Virus record (IMG/VR): IMGVR_UViG_2534682287_000008
Location: 1 to 38,438 of that record
Length of the DNA stretch: 38,438 nucleotides
Source: a virus
Lineage: Duplodnaviria > Heunggongvirae > Uroviricota > Caudoviricetes
Reading direction: 5' to 3' (one strand)
Numbering within the stretch: the stretch's first letter is position 1; the number at the start of each line of letters is the position of its first letter. Both the position numbers and the translations under genes were made by a program. Shown one piece after another: positions 1 to 38,438 of the stretch. The notes under the pieces are model-generated. The model was not told the origin of the DNA. It made no database searches and was given only the letters and a program-made list of their open reading frames with translations.

Positions 1-1149
1 ATGCTCACCGTTAAGCAGATTGAAGCAGCAAAGCCGAAAGAAAAACCATACCGCCTTCTCGATGGTAATGGACTGTACCTTTATGTCCCTGTATCCGGGA
101 AAAAGGTATGGCAGCTTCGCTACAAGATTGACGGTAAGGAGAAAGTCCTAACCGTAGGAAAATATCCGCTAATGACTTTGCAGGAGGCAAGGGATAAGGC
201 ATGGACTGCGAGGAAAGACATCTCGGTTGGCATCGATCCGGTAAAAGCGAAAAAGGCTTCGTCTAACAACAATTCCTTTAGCGCCATTTACAAGGAATGG
301 TACGAGCACAAGAAGCAAGTCTGGTCAGTAGGCTATGCAAATGAACTTGCAAAAATGTTTGATGACGACATTTTACCTATCATCGGCGGCCTTGAAATTC
401 AGGATATTGAGCCGATGCAACTGCTGGAAGTAATCCGCAGATTTGAAGATCGAGGTGCAATGGAGCGAGCCAACAAAGCCCGCAGAAGATGCGGCGAGGT
501 TTTCCGTTACGCTATTGTCACTGGTAGGGCTAAATATAACCCGGCACCTGACCTTGCTGACGCCATGAAGGGATACCGCAAGAAGAACTTCCCGTTTCTT
601 CCAGCAGACCAGATCCCGGCATTCAACAAAGCACTTGCAACATTTTCAGGAAGTATCGTATCGCTCATTGCGACCAAAGTTTTACGCTACACAGCCCTAA
701 GAACGAAAGAGCTTCGTTCCATGCTATGGAAGAACGTCGATTTTGAAAACAGGATTATCACCATCGACGCCAGTGTGATGAAGGGCCGCAAGATTCATGT
801 AGTACCGATGTCAGACCAGGTGGTTGAACTTCTCACTACGCTAAGCTCAATCACCAAACCAGTATCAGAGTTTGTTTTTGCCGGTCGCAACGATAAGAAG
901 AAGCCAATCTGCGAGAACGCGGTACTGCTTGTGATCAAACAAATCGGCTATGAAGGTCTGGAAAGCGGTCACGGATTCAGGCATGAATTCAGCACGATTA
1001 TGAACGAGCACGAATGGCCTGCTGATGCTATTGAAGTGCAACTGGCACATGCCAACGGCGGTTCTGTGCGTGGAATTTACAACCATGCTCAGTATCTCGA
1101 TAAACGCAGAGAAATGATGCAATGGTGGGCGGACTGGCTTGATAGATAA
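1..1149 (+). CDS. int: Tyrosine integrase, P4-type
   Basis: 382 aa; N-terminus MLTVKQIEAAKPKEKPYRLLDGNGLYLYV typical of P4-family integrases; C-terminal catalytic region with HxxR...Y context; ATG at position 1. Confidence 0.9.
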   Translation: MLTVKQIEAAKPKEKPYRLLDGNGLYLYVPVSGKKVWQLRYKIDGKEKVLTVGKYPLMTLQEARDKAWTARKDISVGIDPVKAKKASSNNNSFSAIYKEWYEHKKQVWSVGYANELAKMFDDDILPIIGGLEIQDIEPMQLLEVIRRFEDRGAMERANKARRRCGEVFRYAIVTGRAKYNPAPDLADAMKGYRKKNFPFLPADQIPAFNKALATFSGSIVSLIATKVLRYTALRTKELRSMLWKNVDFENRIITIDASVMKGRKIHVVPMSDQVVELLTTLSSITKPVSEFVFAGRNDKKKPICENAVLLVIKQIGYEGLESGHGFRHEFSTIMNEHEWPADAIEVQLAHANGGSVRGIYNHAQYLDKRREMMQWWADWLDR

Positions 1150-35990: not shown

Positions 35991-36335
35991 ATGTCAGATT
36001 TGGCTATGAAGGTTTTGAAGTGGCAATCGACTGGCGATGTCGGCATCAGTAGCGCAACTCTTGCCTCAATCGCATGTGGACTGAAAAAGAATATCTATGG
36101 TCATCACTTCGGCGCTCCCCATGACGCAGCCGATTTCAGGCGATGCGTTGCGCTTGTCGAGCAGATTCCAGAAATCAGAGATTCATTCGACAAGGTTGCA
36201 AAGCGCGTTCCGGCATTCAAAGGAATCCTCAACGAATGGGATTCCCTAGTTGCTCTGTTGAAGTCTGAAATGAAGATACACGGAAACAAAGCACCAGAGA
36301 CTTACAGAAGAATTAGCGAGTTACGCAAGGACTAA
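35991..36335 (+). CDS. Hypothetical protein
   Basis: 114 aa; GGAGACAAG Shine-Dalgarno; followed by terminator. Confidence 0.5.
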   Translation: MSDLAMKVLKWQSTGDVGISSATLASIACGLKKNIYGHHFGAPHDAADFRRCVALVEQIPEIRDSFDKVAKRVPAFKGILNEWDSLVALLKSEMKIHGNKAPETYRRISELRKD

Positions 36336-36394
36336 CCACAGCCTCACACTCGATGAGGCCAGTTCATTTCTCAAGATATCCAGACCTACCATCG

Positions 36395-36416
36395 CCGCAT
36401 CAATGCGGTTTTTTTA
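36395..36416 (+). terminator. Rho-independent terminator
   Basis: CCGCA-tcaa-TGCGG followed by TTTTTTTATT. Confidence 0.6.
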
Positions 36417-36425
36417 TTGCCTGAT

Positions 36426-36441
36426 TTGCAGGTTCGATTCC
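36426..36441 (+). other. tRNA T-arm-like fragment (TTGCAGGTTCGATTCC)
   Basis: Canonical GGTTCGAtTCC T-loop signature, but no acceptor 3' strand follows. Confidence 0.5.
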
Positions 36442-36460
36442 CTATTCGGAGATAGCACTC

Positions 36461-36661
36461 ATGCAACACGAACTACAGCCTGATTCACTGGTTGATTTGA
36501 AATTCATCATGGCCGATACTGGCTTCGGTAAAACCTTCATCTACGACCGGATTAAGTCCGGCGACCTGCCAAAAGCCAAAGTTATCCACGGACGAGCAAG
36601 ATGGTTATATCGTGACCATTGTGAATTCAAAAATAAGCTCTTAAGCCGCGCTAATGGGTAA
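36461..36661 (+). CDS. AlpA/Xis-family excisionase-like DNA-binding protein
   Basis: 66 aa; LVDLKFIMADTGFGKTFIYDRIKSGDLPKAKVIHGRARWLYRD fits AlpA-family winged helix. Confidence 0.7.
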   Translation: MQHELQPDSLVDLKFIMADTGFGKTFIYDRIKSGDLPKAKVIHGRARWLYRDHCEFKNKLLSRANG

Positions 36662-36734
36662 AATAGCGGGTAAAATATTTCTCACATCTAAAAAATATCA
36701 TTCTAATCAATCCCCTGCCGCGCCAAGTAGATGT

Positions 36735-36749
36735 CTGCAGGGGACACCA
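36735..36749 (+). other. tRNA-Arg-like 3' end (CTGCAGGGGACACCA); probable attR core
   Basis: Matches recalled 3' end of argW-type tRNA; flanked by inverted repeat CCCCTGC...GCAGGGG. Confidence 0.5.
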
Positions 36750-37190
36750 GATACCCTTCAAACGAAATCTACCTTCACCCCGTAAAAGATGGGTTTGGCA
36801 GCACACTTGCCTTATATCTACTCATTTTTACTGCAACAGGTTGAAATCTCAGCACTGTCAGAAAGCGCTGATGACTAAACAGCCCTGGGCCGGGCGATGT
36901 AACCATCACACAGAATCCTGATAGCGAAATATGGCGTGACTCGATACTTCACTCCGCAATGCATTCCTTGATGAATTCGCAGGACCGTGATACACGGGAC
37001 AGGTCACTGAATGACGACAATGTCCTGGAAATCAGCGAACCGCGCATCTGAAGTACATTTGAGCGACTGTACCAGAACATGAATGAGGCGTTTGGATTAG
37101 GCGATTATTAGCAGGGCTAAGCATTTTACTATTATTATTTTCCGGTTGAGGGATATAGAGCTATCGACAACAACCGGAAAAAGTTTACGT

Positions 37191-38438
37191 CTATATTGCT
37201 GAAGGTACAGGCGTTTCCATAACTATTTGCTCGCGTTTTTTACTCAAGAAGAAAATGCCAAATAGCAACATCAGGCAGACAATACCCGAAATTGCGAAGA
37301 AAACTGTCTGGTAGCCTGCGTGGTCAAAGAGTATCCCAGTCGGCGTTGAAAGCAGCACAATCCCAAGCGAACTGGCAATTTGAAAACCAATCAGAAAGAT
37401 CGTCGACGACAGGCGCTTATCAAAGTTTGCCACGCTGTATTTGAAGACGGATATGACACAAAGTGGAACCTCAATGGCATGTAACAACTTCACTAATGAA
37501 ATAATCCAGGGGTTAACGAACAGCGCGCAGGAAAGGATACGCAACGCCATAATCACAACTCCGATAAGTAATGCATTTTTTGGCCCTACCCGATTCACAA
37601 AGAAAGGAATAATCGCCATGCACAGCGCTTCGAGTACCACCTGGAATGAGTTGAGATAACCATACAGGCGCGTTCCTACATCGTGTGATTCGAATAAACC
37701 TGCATAAAAGACAGGAAAAAGTTGTTGATCAAAAATGTTATAGAAAGACCACGTCCCCACAATAAATATGACGAAAACCCAGAAGTTTCGATCCTTGAAA
37801 ACTGCGATAAAATCCTCTTTTTTTACCCCTCCCGCATCTGCCGCTACGCACTGGTGATCCTTATCTTTAAAACGCATGTTGATCATCATAAATACAGCGC
37901 CAAATAGCGAGACCAACCAGAAGTTGATATGGGGACTGATACTAAAAAATATGCCGGCAAAGAACGCGCCAATAGCATAGCCAAAAGATCCCCAGGCGCG
38001 CGCTGTTCCATATTCGAAATGAAAATTTCGCGCCATTTTTTCGGTGAAGCTATCAAGCAAACCGCATCCCGCCAGATACCCCAAGCCAAAAAATAGCGCC
38101 CCCAGAATTAGACCTACAGAAAAATTGCTTTGCAGTAACGGTTCATAAACGTAAATCATAAACGGTCCGGTCAAGACCAGGATGAAACTCATACACCAGA
38201 TGAGCGGTTTCTTCAGACCGAGTTTATCCTGAACGATGCCGTAGAACATCATAAATAGAATGCTGGTAAACTGGTTGACCGAATAAAGTGTACCTAATTC
38301 CGTCCCTGTCAACCCTAGATGTCCTTTCAGCCAAATAGCGTATAACGACCACCACAGCGACCAGGAAATAAAAAAGAGAAATGAGTAACTGGATGCAAAA
38401 CGATAGTACGCATTTCTGAATGGAATATTCAGTGCCAT
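37191..38438 (-). CDS. cscB: LacY-family oligosaccharide:H+ symporter (sucrose permease CscB-like); host gene
   Basis: 415 aa, 12 predicted transmembrane segments; LacY-like N-terminus; start coincides with window end. Confidence 0.8.
   Translation of the reverse strand: MALNIPFRNAYYRFASSYSFLFFISWSLWWSLYAIWLKGHLGLTGTELGTLYSVNQFTSILFMMFYGIVQDKLGLKKPLIWCMSFILVLTGPFMIYVYEPLLQSNFSVGLILGALFFGLGYLAGCGLLDSFTEKMARNFHFEYGTARAWGSFGYAIGAFFAGIFFSISPHINFWLVSLFGAVFMMINMRFKDKDHQCVAADAGGVKKEDFIAVFKDRNFWVFVIFIVGTWSFYNIFDQQLFPVFYAGLFESHDVGTRLYGYLNSFQVVLEALCMAIIPFFVNRVGPKNALLIGVVIMALRILSCALFVNPWIISLVKLLHAIEVPLCVISVFKYSVANFDKRLSSTIFLIGFQIASSLGIVLLSTPTGILFDHAGYQTVFFAISGIVCLMLLFGIFFLSKKREQIVMETPVPSAI

What the first reader, a model, noticed from the sequence alone, without database searches (positions are those of the whole stretch)
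36426..36749. tRNA-Arg-like 3' half is split into two pieces that flank the excisionase-like gene
A T-arm fragment (TTGCAGGTTCGATTCC) lies at 36426-36441 just upstream of the AlpA-like gene, and the matching acceptor 3' end (CTGCAGGGGACACCA) lies about 295 bp further on at 36735-36749. Joined together they would reconstitute the 3' half of an argW-type tRNA. Either the attachment core of this phage is interrupted by the xis cassette, or two elements have integrated in tandem at the same tRNA and left a remnant.
Basis: partly seen in the sequence, partly recalled or inferred. Interest (0 to 1): 0.55.

Follow-up and report, generated by a model that had tools for sequence, protein, structure and literature searches.

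The report
Known argW prophage junction plus leader motif
The right-hand piece is the well-known crossover site of an Sf6/HK620/KplE1-type prophage sitting in the argW tRNA gene. The left-hand piece is a phage-borne, strongly conserved tRNA-T-loop-like motif in the leader of the excisionase gene torI, not half of a broken attachment site.

Summary
Both fragments are real and exact. Joined, they equal the last 30 nt of argW.

The window is one complete P22-like prophage, running from the intS start codon to the host gene cscB. It carries the published KplE1/HK620/Sf6 recombination module.
- CTGCAGGGGACACCA (36735-36749) is the attR copy of the published 16-nt core. Homology to empty argW sites starts exactly there.
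- The gene between the two pieces is TorI, a full-length match to PDB 1Z4H.

TTGCAGGTTCGATTCC (36426-36441) is neither host DNA nor a tandem-integration scar.
- It is present in the free phage genomes Sf6 and HK620, and in K-12.
- It lies outside the 135-bp attR that suffices for excision in vitro.
- In most related lineages, though only weakly in E. coli, attP keeps its own T-loop-like stretch next to the core. The 16-mer is therefore an extra copy, not the missing half.

Only the decamer GTTCGATTCC is conserved across Enterobacterales. It sits a fixed 29 nt before the excisionase ATG and is as conserved as the Shine-Dalgarno sequence.

My tentative best mechanism is that it forms the 5' strand of a hairpin that sequesters the Shine-Dalgarno sequence and damps TorI translation. 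It scores poorly as a TorI site and fits the annotated cII/pI promoter badly.

The system is already known, so interest is low to moderate.

The parts
1..1149 (+). intS, a P4-type tyrosine integrase. The window starts at its ATG, so attL (argW plus a 161-nt P' arm) lies just outside the window.
   Evidence: ORF 1-1149. Pfam Arm-DNA-bind_3, Phage_int_M and Phage_integrase. Annotated intS in related lysogens, with argW 161 nt upstream.
36394..36415 (+). Intrinsic terminator (the hit in HK022 record X51962 is annotated 'tL4 terminator'). It marks the left edge of the torI-attP-intS module.
   Evidence: Terminator scan. Homology to HK022/434/Stx phages ends at about 36413. Different upstream contexts converge about 50 nt before the torI ATG.
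36426..36441 (+). T-arm-like 16-mer TTGCAGGTTCGATTCC, equal to argW T-stem 5' strand, T-loop and CC. The conserved part is the decamer GTTCGATTCC at 36432-36441.
   Evidence: Exact single copy. Identical in K-12, Sf6, HK620 and CUS-3. The decamer has mean pairwise identity of about 0.93 across 48 distinct leaders.
36448..36453 (+). Shine-Dalgarno region GGAGAT of torI, the proposed pairing partner of AUUCC/UUCGA in the 16-mer.
   Evidence: Conservation 0.88-1.0. Pairing counts and folds.
36461..36661 (+). torI, the excisionase (recombination directionality factor), 66 aa.
   Evidence: Full-length match (residues 1-66 of 66, E=6.6e-43) to PDB 1Z4H 'Tor inhibition protein'. 100% identity to HK620 HkaC and Sf6 gp18. 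Annotated torI in E. coli genomes. No Pfam hit at E<=1e-3.
36656..36677 (+). Two direct repeats GGGTAAAATA (36656-36665 and 36668-36677), likely IntS arm-type sites of the P arm.
   Evidence: the repeat finder family D4. PMC2951348 reports a conserved TAAA in the P' arm-type sites of attL. Assigning these two attR repeats as arm-type sites is my inference.
36711..36744 (+). Inverted repeat TCCCCTGC (36711-36718) / GCAGGGGA (36737-36744) spanning the left attP flank and the core. It contains GATGTC (36729-36734), the inferred left core half-site.
   Evidence: the repeat finder I7. CCCCTGC and GATGT(C/A/T) recur in nearly all related loci. The half-site assignment GATGTC|TGCAGGG|GACACC is my inference.
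36735..36749 (+). attR core CTGCAGGGGACACCA, the crossover segment and 3' end of argW. Host DNA continues from here.
   Evidence: Empty-site genomes match the window from 36735 onward at 100%. The published 16/17-nt core is CTGCAGGGGACACCAT(T) (PMC2951348, PMC8787464).
37191..38438 (-). Host oligosaccharide MFS transporter gene (cscB-type), the chromosomal neighbour of argW in csc+ strains.
   Evidence: ORF. Annotated next to tRNA-Arg in empty sites.

Best explanation
Anatomy (firm, about 0.9). The window is a complete P22-like prophage integrated in argW through the KplE1/HK620/Sf6 recombination module. In the prophage the order is argW-[core]-P' arm-intS ... terminator-[T-arm 16-mer]-torI-P arm-[core]-host. 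The piece at 36735-36749 is the attR copy of the crossover core. The piece at 36426-36441 belongs to the phage. It sits in the 45-nt leader between an intrinsic terminator and the torI ribosome-binding site, at the left edge of the mobile torI-attP-intS module. It is not needed for recombination. The prophage is thus flanked by nested direct repeats ([16-mer][core] in argW; [16-mer]-torI-[core] at the right end), which is why the tRNA half looks split.

Origin (inferred, about 0.6). The 16-mer descends from argW T-arm DNA captured by an ancestor of the module. Many lineages still match argW at 15-16 of 16 positions. It is an extra T-loop copy, because attP keeps its own T-loop-like stretch next to the core.

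Mechanism (tentative, about 0.35). Only GTTCGATTCC is under strong constraint, at a fixed 29 nt from the ATG. Its RNA forms the 5' strand of a small hairpin, (G)GUU..AUUCC / GGAGAU..AAC(C), that buries the Shine-Dalgarno sequence. Together with the upstream terminator this would keep TorI translation low. That matters in this module because IntS is made constitutively and the decision to excise rests on TorI alone (PMC2951348).
For: Anatomy:
- Host homology to empty argW-cscB sites begins at 36735.
- TorI is a full-length match to PDB 1Z4H and is 100% identical to HK620 HkaC and Sf6 gp18.
- intS lies at 1-1149.
- attL in related lysogens shows the contiguous 16-mer plus core, followed by the five GTTCG-type TorI sites and intS.
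- The core and the xis-attP-int order are published.

Phage-borne and outside att:
- The identical 16-mer is upstream of torI in the free phages Sf6 and HK620, in K-12, and in 80 of 85 E. coli loci with at least 3 different upstream contexts.
- The in-vitro attR starts at the 3' end of torI.

Extra copy:
- The attP flank reads (A/T)TTCGATGT(A/C)TGCAGGGG in about 10 lineages.

Constraint:
- The decamer has pairwise identity of about 0.93, equal to the Shine-Dalgarno region. Third codon positions of the excisionase gene score 0.52 and DNA further upstream 0.3-0.5.
- It survives in excisionase lineages only 51% and 39% identical to TorI.

Hairpin:
- The proposed pairs are standard in 91.7% of cells in 24 distinct leaders, against 27-61% for slid registers.
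- The same architecture is the minimum-free-energy fold in most of the 24 leaders. P(SD paired) is 0.74-1.0 and the mean z is -1.36, reaching -4.2.
- It explains the otherwise odd conservation of A-4/C-3.
- It fits the loss of the motif where torI overlaps the upstream gene (Klebsiella phage Chronis).
Against: - There are no compensatory double changes, because the paired columns are nearly invariant.
- The tested structure was derived from these same sequences, which favours it over the slid registers.
- RNAalifold on -36..+24 predicts no consensus structure.
- The E. coli copy, which is the one in this window, folds weakly and in another register (-3.6 kcal/mol, z +0.19). With more flank it reaches -12.5 kcal/mol but z is only -0.95.
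- C-26/G-25 are conserved although they lie in an internal loop in most registers.
- E. coli polymorphisms in stem positions are a mix of wobble-compatible and disruptive changes.
- The motif is missing from several lineages (L013, L015, L016, L020-26, EhrS_49), so it is not essential.
- No experiment addresses it.
Confidence: 0.4

Rival explanations
1. Ancient split. An ancestral attP carried the contiguous 30-nt argW 3' half. The torI + P-arm segment was then inserted between C62 and T63, leaving the 16-mer as the displaced left part, which was later co-opted.
For: The two pieces abut to within one base in argW. They bracket exactly the excisionase gene plus P arm. The arrangement is shared by the whole family, and in Serratia and Pantoea loci the upstream piece extends to GATTCCTG.
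Against: attP keeps its own TTCGAT in the correct register next to the core in about 10 lineages, so the T-loop is duplicated, not divided. The rest of the leader shows no similarity to the tRNA acceptor end (p 0.19-0.99). No relative with a contiguous phage-borne 30-mer was found: all contiguous hits in phage records with IntS/TorI are attL junctions that include host argW.
Confidence: 0.2
2. Tandem or serial integration in this genome. A second element integrated at argW and left a partial tRNA fragment.
For: None beyond the repeat itself. Tandem arrays at tRNA genes are a known phenomenon (general knowledge).
Against: The 16-mer is in free phage genomes and in K-12. It lacks the 3' end that a displaced fragment retains. 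DNA to its left is contiguous lambdoid early DNA shared with HK022/434. DNA right of 36735 equals empty sites at 100%. There is only one integrase and one core copy in the window.
Confidence: 0.02
3. TorI operator. The 16-mer contains GTTCG, the core of the mapped TorI sites, and TorI binds it to autoregulate torI.
For: TorI sites in attL are GTTCG/GATCG/GTCCG, and TorI represses PintS (PMC2951348). A second (G/A)T(T/C)CG lies 12 nt downstream in TorI-type leaders. Erwinia phage Midgardsormr38 has two tandem copies of the motif.
Against: A weight matrix from 27 distinct sites in 7 P' arms scores the 16-mer at -0.07, against 8.8-16.4 for 26 of the 27 training sites. 73% of random G[TA][TC]CG pentamers in the window score at least as well. 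The base after GTTCG is always C/T in real sites but an invariant A here. phiEt88 keeps the motif although its P'-arm repeats are GATGTAACC/GCGTTACCC. Spacings of 12 and 17 nt do not follow the 10-nt phasing of the attL arrays.
Confidence: 0.12
4. cII-activated pI-type promoter, as annotated in the HK620 and Sf6 records. TTGCCTGATTTGC would be the cII box. The 16-mer would span the -35/spacer of a promoter that starts at or after the torI RBS, so that Int is made without TorI during lysogenisation.
For: GenBank features 'promoter, phage integration', 'cII protein' (HK620) and 'pI' (Sf6) cover this stretch. A terminator just upstream means some dedicated start or antitermination is needed. The related prophage encodes a CII-family protein.
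Against: The box is TTGC-N5-TTGC, not the canonical N6 (lambda/P22 knowledge). It is absent or altered in most other lineages, while the decamer is invariant. The sigma-70 scan finds no promoter in 36200-36900. I found no experimental support, and the annotation is a prediction.
Confidence: 0.13
5. Integrase decoy or operator. The decamer is a free-standing copy of the left (B-type) half of attB, bound by the core-binding domains of IntS. Bridging to the arm sites after torI could couple Int occupancy to torI expression.
For: The conserved decamer is exactly the 10 nt of argW that abut the common identity segment TGCAGGGGACA. Its invariance parallels that of the core across integrase lineages whose arm sites differ, GGGTAAA versus GGGCATA.
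Against: I know of no precedent. The inferred strong half-sites are GATGTC/GGTGTC, so selection for Int binding should not preserve the weak B-type GATTCC (inference). The motif is dispensable in vitro and absent in several lineages.
Confidence: 0.08

Closest known systems
KplE1 (CPS-53) / HK620 / Sf6 / Kapi1 argW recombination module (IntS + TorI)
   Same: TorI is 100% identical to HK620 HkaC and Sf6 gp18. The core CTGCAGGGGACACCA is the same. So are the xis-attP-int order (int and xis at opposite prophage ends), the GGGTAAAAT repeats after torI, and the 16-mer upstream of torI.
   Different: Nothing essential. The host flank here is cscB rather than dsdC, so the base after the core is G, not T. 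The accessible papers do not discuss the upstream 16-mer.
CUS-3 prophage ends as deposited (GenBank CP000711)
   Same: The same 16-mer TTGCAGGTTCGATTCC is annotated there as 'attL core' (1-16) and 'attR core' (40192-40207).
   Different: That annotation treats the 16-mer as the crossover site and cuts torI out of the prophage. Empty-site comparison here, and the experimental work on KplE1 and Kapi1, place the crossover in CTGCAGGGGACACCAT instead.
Lambda-type control of Xis/Int synthesis (pI inside xis, sib retroregulation, unstable Xis)
   Same: The biological problem is the same: making Int without Xis at integration, and keeping Xis off in the lysogen. A terminator precedes the excisionase gene in the pL operon.
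   Different: attP lies between xis and int. intS has its own autoregulated promoter in attL. The proposed device is a leader hairpin over the torI Shine-Dalgarno sequence, not a promoter inside xis or an RNase III site. (Lambda facts are from general knowledge.)
Partial tRNA 3' copies at the ends of tRNA-integrated elements
   Same: The core at 36735-36749 is a textbook example: the phage copy restores the tRNA at attL and the displaced copy marks attR.
   Different: The upstream 16-mer carries the T-loop but not the 3' end, is not at a junction, and travels inside the phage genome.

Membership tests
KplE1/HK620/Sf6 IntS-TorI module at argW | TorI-type excisionase | tested here: met
   Full-length match (66 of 66 residues, E=6.6e-43) to PDB 1Z4H. 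100% identity to HkaC and Sf6 gp18.
KplE1/HK620/Sf6 IntS-TorI module at argW | IntS integrase at the opposite prophage end, transcribed away from argW | tested here: met
   ORF 1-1149 with arm-binding, central and catalytic domains. Related lysogens show argW followed by intS.
KplE1/HK620/Sf6 IntS-TorI module at argW | Duplicated core CTGCAGGGGACACCAT at both ends, inside argW | tested here: met
   The attR copy is at 36735-36749 and the host junction was mapped against empty sites. The attL copy is outside the window but was seen in near-identical lysogens.
KplE1/HK620/Sf6 IntS-TorI module at argW | Actual Int/TorI-dependent excision at the core | not testable with these tools
   Shown experimentally for KplE1 and Kapi1 only (PMC2951348, PMC3509656, PMC8787464).
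tRNA gene, split or interrupted tRNA | Cloverleaf with 5' half, anticodon arm and paired acceptor stem | tested here: not met
   ARAGORN finds 0 genes. Rfam gives no tRNA hit at E<=10. I saw no GTCCTCT-type acceptor 5' strand on reading the sequence upstream of the 16-mer. T-stem 5' bases vary between lineages without any compensating change in the core piece.
Displaced att fragment of a tandem integration | Fragment keeps the tRNA 3' end, lies at an element boundary, and is absent from the free element | tested here: not met
   It ends at C62 and is present in Sf6/HK620 genomes. The flanks are contiguous phage DNA.
TorI binding site (I-site) | G(T/A)(T/C)CG pentamer | tested here: met
   GTTCG at 36432-36436. 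Motif taken from PMC2951348.
TorI binding site (I-site) | Flanking consensus (C/T)A-pentamer-(C/T) and 10-nt phased arrays | tested here: not met
   Weight-matrix score of -0.07, against 8.8-16.4 for 26 of the 27 training sites. A invariant A sits at +5, where real sites never have A.
cII-dependent promoter (pI/pRE type) | TTGC-N6-TTGC box straddling a weak -35, conserved with the promoter | tested here: not met
   The spacing is N5. The box is missing in most lineages that keep the decamer. No sigma-70 match was found.
Shine-Dalgarno-sequestering leader hairpin | Upstream strand complementary to the SD, kept in homologues | tested here: met
   91.7% of cells are paired, against 27-61% in slid registers. 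The SD is paired with P 0.74-1.0 in 24 leaders.
Shine-Dalgarno-sequestering leader hairpin | Compensatory covariation or folding energy clearly beyond shuffles | tested here: inconclusive
   There are 0 double changes. Mean z is -1.36, but +0.19 for the E. coli copy. RNAalifold gives no consensus.

The most novel reading that the evidence does not exclude
The phage deliberately carries a free-standing copy of the T-loop half of its bacterial attachment site in the excisionase leader. That copy would be read by a trans-acting factor that recognises the argW T-loop sequence (the integrase core-binding domains or a host T-loop-binding protein). The state of the recombination machinery would thereby be coupled directly to TorI synthesis, as a new layer of directionality control. 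This would explain why all ten T-loop bases, and not only the anti-SD part, are invariant across excisionase and integrase lineages.
Probability: 0.1. Interest if true: 0.55.

Novelty: already known. Interest (0 to 1): 0.3.

Why it matters
The att core, TorI and the xis-attP-int layout are textbook material for this phage group, so the finding as written adds nothing new. Two smaller points have some value.

First, the nested 16-nt repeat can mislead annotation. The CUS-3 record uses it as the prophage border and thereby drops torI.

Second, the T-loop decamer in the torI leader is as conserved as the ribosome-binding site across Enterobacterales, and no accessible paper explains it. In this module integrase is always present and excision is decided by TorI alone. 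A cis element that throttles TorI would therefore bear directly on lysogen stability, including that of O-antigen-converting and Stx phages that use the same module.

Tried and rejected
- Rfam at a permissive threshold over 36200-37000 gave only chance hits and no tRNA.
- Search for a contiguous phage-borne 30/33-mer. The CUS-3 hit was read and is an attL junction containing host argW. The other hits were judged from their annotation (attL, tRNA-Arg) or are unrelated tRNA genes.
- Distant P4-type integrase phages (38% identity or less) do not share the RDF-attP-int layout. The test 'does the leader motif track the target tRNA?' could therefore not be made. All RDF relatives found target argW-type cores.
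- Pattern scan of viral contigs for other T-loops (GGTTCGAVTCC) followed by SD-ATG returned 120 loci, with no TorI-like ORF behind any.
- The idea that the whole leader is a decayed tRNA 3' end, with the SD derived from AGGGGA, found no significant similarity.
- TorI-site weight matrix: the 16-mer does not fit.
- RNAalifold consensus: none.
- A long-range RNA pairing of the two pieces into a T-stem was rejected. The T-stem 5' bases vary (CCAGG, ACAGG, CCAAG and others) while the 3' piece is fixed.
- The JBC 2007 and Virology 2010 papers that map the att sites are not held. A full-text search for the 16-mer found nothing.

Full report
**1. Observation**

TTGCAGGTTCGATTCC is at 36426-36441 and CTGCAGGGGACACCA is at 36735-36749. 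Even allowing two mismatches, shuffled sequence gives only 0.04 and 0.06 hits.

In an unoccupied chromosomal site (strain 602354, L002) the argW gene ends ...GGGCTAATTGCAGGTTCGATTCCTGCAGGGGACACCA. The two pieces are therefore neighbours in the tRNA, share one C, and together make its last 30 nt. No tRNA is called in the window by ARAGORN, and Rfam gives none in 36200-37000 even at E<=10.

**2. What the window is**

The window begins at the ATG of intS (1-1149). Its product has arm-binding, central and catalytic integrase domains. The window ends at the start codon of the host cscB-type transporter gene (37191-38438, minus strand).

A closely related lysogen (O178:H19 2012C-4431, L329) shows the same layout: yfdC, argW, intS, acyltransferase, tailspike, P22-type virion genes, Q, replication genes, cII, cro, cI, N, erf, ea genes, torI, transporter. 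The window is therefore one whole Sf6/HK620/CUS-3-like prophage. Its attL (argW plus a 161-nt P' arm) lies just outside the left edge.

The 66-aa ORF at 36461-36661 is TorI. It matches PDB 1Z4H 'Tor inhibition protein' over its full length. It is 100% identical to HK620 HkaC and Sf6 gp18 and is annotated torI in E. coli genomes. It does not reach Pfam thresholds, so 'AlpA-like' is a structural resemblance rather than a Pfam membership shown here.

**3. The right-hand piece**

Genomes with an empty site (tRNA-Arg next to the transporter gene) match the window at 100% from 36735 onward and not before (alignment).
- The KplE1 literature gives the duplicated core as CTGCAGGGGACACCAT (PMC2951348).
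- The Kapi1 paper gives the same 17-nt site and shows by deletion that it is the attB. It also states that attP lies between int and xis, so the two genes end up at opposite prophage ends (PMC8787464).

The piece at 36735-36749 is thus the attR core. The last base of the published core differs here only because the host flank is cscB-type rather than dsdC-type.

Directly after the torI stop codon lie two GGGTAAAATA repeats. I take these to be the P-arm integrase arm sites, by analogy with the TAAA-containing P' sites of attL.

Around the core the sequence reads GATGTC|TGCAGGG|GACACC. This looks like two inverted half-sites around a 7-nt overlap. That reading is my inference, not a result.

**4. 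The left-hand piece is phage DNA, outside the functional att site**

The same 16-mer, in the same place, is found in four settings:
- K-12 KplE1;
- the virion genomes of Sf6 and HK620;
- CUS-3;
- 80 of 85 E. coli-type torI loci, the other five differing at one base.

Those loci have at least three unrelated upstream contexts, which converge about 50 nt before the torI ATG, at the T-run of an intrinsic terminator (36394-36415). Homology to HK022, 434 and Stx phages stops at about 36413. The 16-mer therefore sits at the left edge of the mobile torI-attP-intS module and travels with it.

In-vitro excision works with a 135-bp attR whose left primer lies at the 3' end of torI (PMC3509656). The 16-mer is therefore not required for recombination.

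These facts exclude a tandem-integration scar in this genome. A displaced att fragment would keep the tRNA 3' end, would sit at an element border, and would be absent from free phage.

**5. It is an extra T-loop copy, not the missing half of a split core**

In about ten non-E. coli lineages the attP flank next to the core reads (A/T)TTCGATGT(A/C)TGCAGGGGACACCA. That is the T-loop hexamer in the correct register, followed by three changed bases and then the core. The E. coli version (GTAGATGTC) is a degenerate form of the same.

The module thus contains two T-loop-like stretches, one beside the core and one upstream of torI.

The repeat has been noticed before. The CUS-3 GenBank record labels the 16-mer 'attL core' and 'attR core' and ends the prophage there, leaving torI out. 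By the evidence above that places the border wrongly. The HK620 and Sf6 records label the same stretch a predicted cII-activated 'phage integration' promoter, pI.

**6. Conservation**

I collected excisionase loci from 24 genomes of Enterobacterales and about 170 viral contigs and phage records. The motif recurs upstream of the excisionase gene as follows:
- Enterobacter, Citrobacter, Serratia, Pantoea and Edwardsiella;
- the Salmonella g341c group, whose excisionase is only 51% identical to TorI;
- Erwinia phage phiEt88, at 39% identity;
- Erwinia phage Midgardsormr38, where it is tandemly duplicated.

In 48 distinct leaders, GTTCGATT(C/T)C lies at -29 to -20 from the ATG. Mean pairwise identities compare as follows:

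| Region | Mean pairwise identity |
|---|---|
| Decamer GTTCGATT(C/T)C | about 0.93 |
| Shine-Dalgarno GGAGAT | 0.92 |
| Third codon positions | 0.52 |
| First / second codon positions | 0.69 / 0.78 |
| Further upstream | 0.3-0.5 |

The T-stem part is much less conserved (TTGCAGG, TTCCAGG, TTACAGG, TGACAGG, CCAAG, CCCTG, CTCAG). The host tRNA T-arm, by contrast, is GCAGGTTCGATTCCTGC in all the attL junctions recovered.

Three conclusions follow.
- Many lineages match argW at 15-16 of 16 positions, which supports descent from tRNA DNA.
- Only the T-loop decamer is under constraint.
- The constraint is too strong for a neutral relic.

The motif is nevertheless absent from several lineages. One is Klebsiella phage Chronis, where torI overlaps the upstream gene. 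The motif is therefore an accessory, not a necessity.

**7. What it may do**

*TorI operator.* The decamer contains GTTCG, the core of the mapped TorI sites. A weight matrix built from 27 distinct sites, at conserved positions in seven P' arms, gives the 16-mer a score of -0.07, against 8.8-16.4 for 26 of the 27 training sites. In the window, 73% of random pentamer matches score at least as well. The base after the pentamer is never A in real sites but always A here. phiEt88 also keeps the motif although its P'-arm repeats are of a different type. This idea is weakened.

*cII/pI promoter.* The box is TTGC-N5-TTGC rather than N6. It is missing in most lineages that keep the decamer, and no sigma-70-like promoter is found. 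This is possible for the E. coli lineage, but it does not explain the conservation.

*Integrase half-site mimic.* The decamer is exactly the attB sequence abutting the common identity block. However, the inferred strong half-sites are GATGTC/GGTGTC, and I know of no precedent.

*RNA hairpin.* In the leader RNA, (G)GUU and AUUCC can pair with AAC(C) just before the AUG and with GGAGAU.
- These nine pairs are standard in 91.7% of cells of 24 distinct leaders, against 27-61% when the 3' partners are slid.
- Folding of -31..-1 gives this architecture as the minimum-energy structure in most of the 24 leaders. The Shine-Dalgarno sequence is paired with probability 0.74-1.0 and the mean z is -1.36.
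- The hairpin also accounts for the fixed spacing, for the otherwise unexplained conservation of A-4 and C-3, and for loss of the motif where translation is coupled to an upstream gene.

Against the hairpin:
- No compensatory changes exist, because the columns hardly vary.
- The tested structure was derived from these same sequences.
- RNAalifold finds no consensus on a longer alignment.
- The E. coli copy folds weakly and in a different register.

I therefore put the hairpin first, at only about 0.35.

Biologically it makes sense. In this module intS is expressed constitutively at a low level and excision is governed by TorI supply (PMC2951348). A terminator plus a masked ribosome-binding site in front of torI would protect lysogeny.

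**8. Origin**

The simplest history is that an ancestor of the module captured a short stretch of argW T-arm DNA next to the excisionase gene, and that part of it was then co-opted.

The second T-loop-like stretch beside the core argues against a simple split. The remainder of the leader shows no similarity to the acceptor end of the tRNA.

**9. Verdict**

The system is the published KplE1/HK620/Sf6 argW module, and this prophage is an ordinary member of it. Neither of the two proposed mechanisms is supported: the tandem scar is refuted, and the interrupted core fails as a functional claim, although an ancient insertion origin cannot be excluded (section 8).

What remains unexplained, and mildly interesting, is the deep conservation of a tRNA T-loop decamer in the excisionase leader.

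Noticed in passing
L003:1-16 and L004:3193-3208 (CUS-3, GenBank CP000711): The deposited CUS-3 prophage ends are defined by the T-arm 16-mer ('attL core', 'attR core'). The record therefore stops just before where torI and the true core would lie. This is probably a mis-set right border caused by the nested repeat.
   Followed up: partly
window 36711-36718 / 36737-36744: An 8-bp perfect inverted repeat TCCCCTGC...GCAGGGGA joins phage P-arm DNA to the tRNA-derived core. The CCCCTGC arm is kept in nearly all related attP/attR sequences. Its role is unknown; it could be a second core-type site or an RNA/DNA hairpin.
   Followed up: partly
L335, L350, L362, L363 (viral contigs); L032 (Klebsiella phage Chronis): In some relatives the identity with the tRNA stops at TGCAGGGGACAC and continues TTGT/TTTT/TTAT. 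After integration the tRNA-Arg gene would then no longer encode its CCA end.
   Followed up: no
L031:1950-2000 (Erwinia phage Midgardsormr38): There is a tandem duplication of the leader motif: ACAGGTTCGATTCCCGTCAGGTTCGATTCCCACCGGAGAT.
   Followed up: no
window 36419-36434 and 36478-36493: A 16-nt direct repeat at 81% identity, GCCTGATTTGCAGGTT (leader) versus GCCTGATTCACTGGTT (torI codons 6-11). It may be chance.
   Followed up: no
L114:1935-2198 (Salmonella phage g341c gene 19): The deposited excisionase CDS starts at an upstream in-frame ATG and so reads through the T-loop motif. The conserved SD and ATG 60 nt downstream suggest the annotated start is too early.
   Followed up: no
window 1 and 38438: The window is cut exactly at the intS ATG and at the cscB ATG. 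The intact argW and the P' arm with the five TorI sites therefore lie immediately outside it.
   Followed up: yes
L329:18490-18645 versus the window: The closely related O178:H19 prophage carries tRNA-Asn and tRNA-Thr genes after the Q gene. ARAGORN finds no tRNA anywhere in this window.
   Followed up: no
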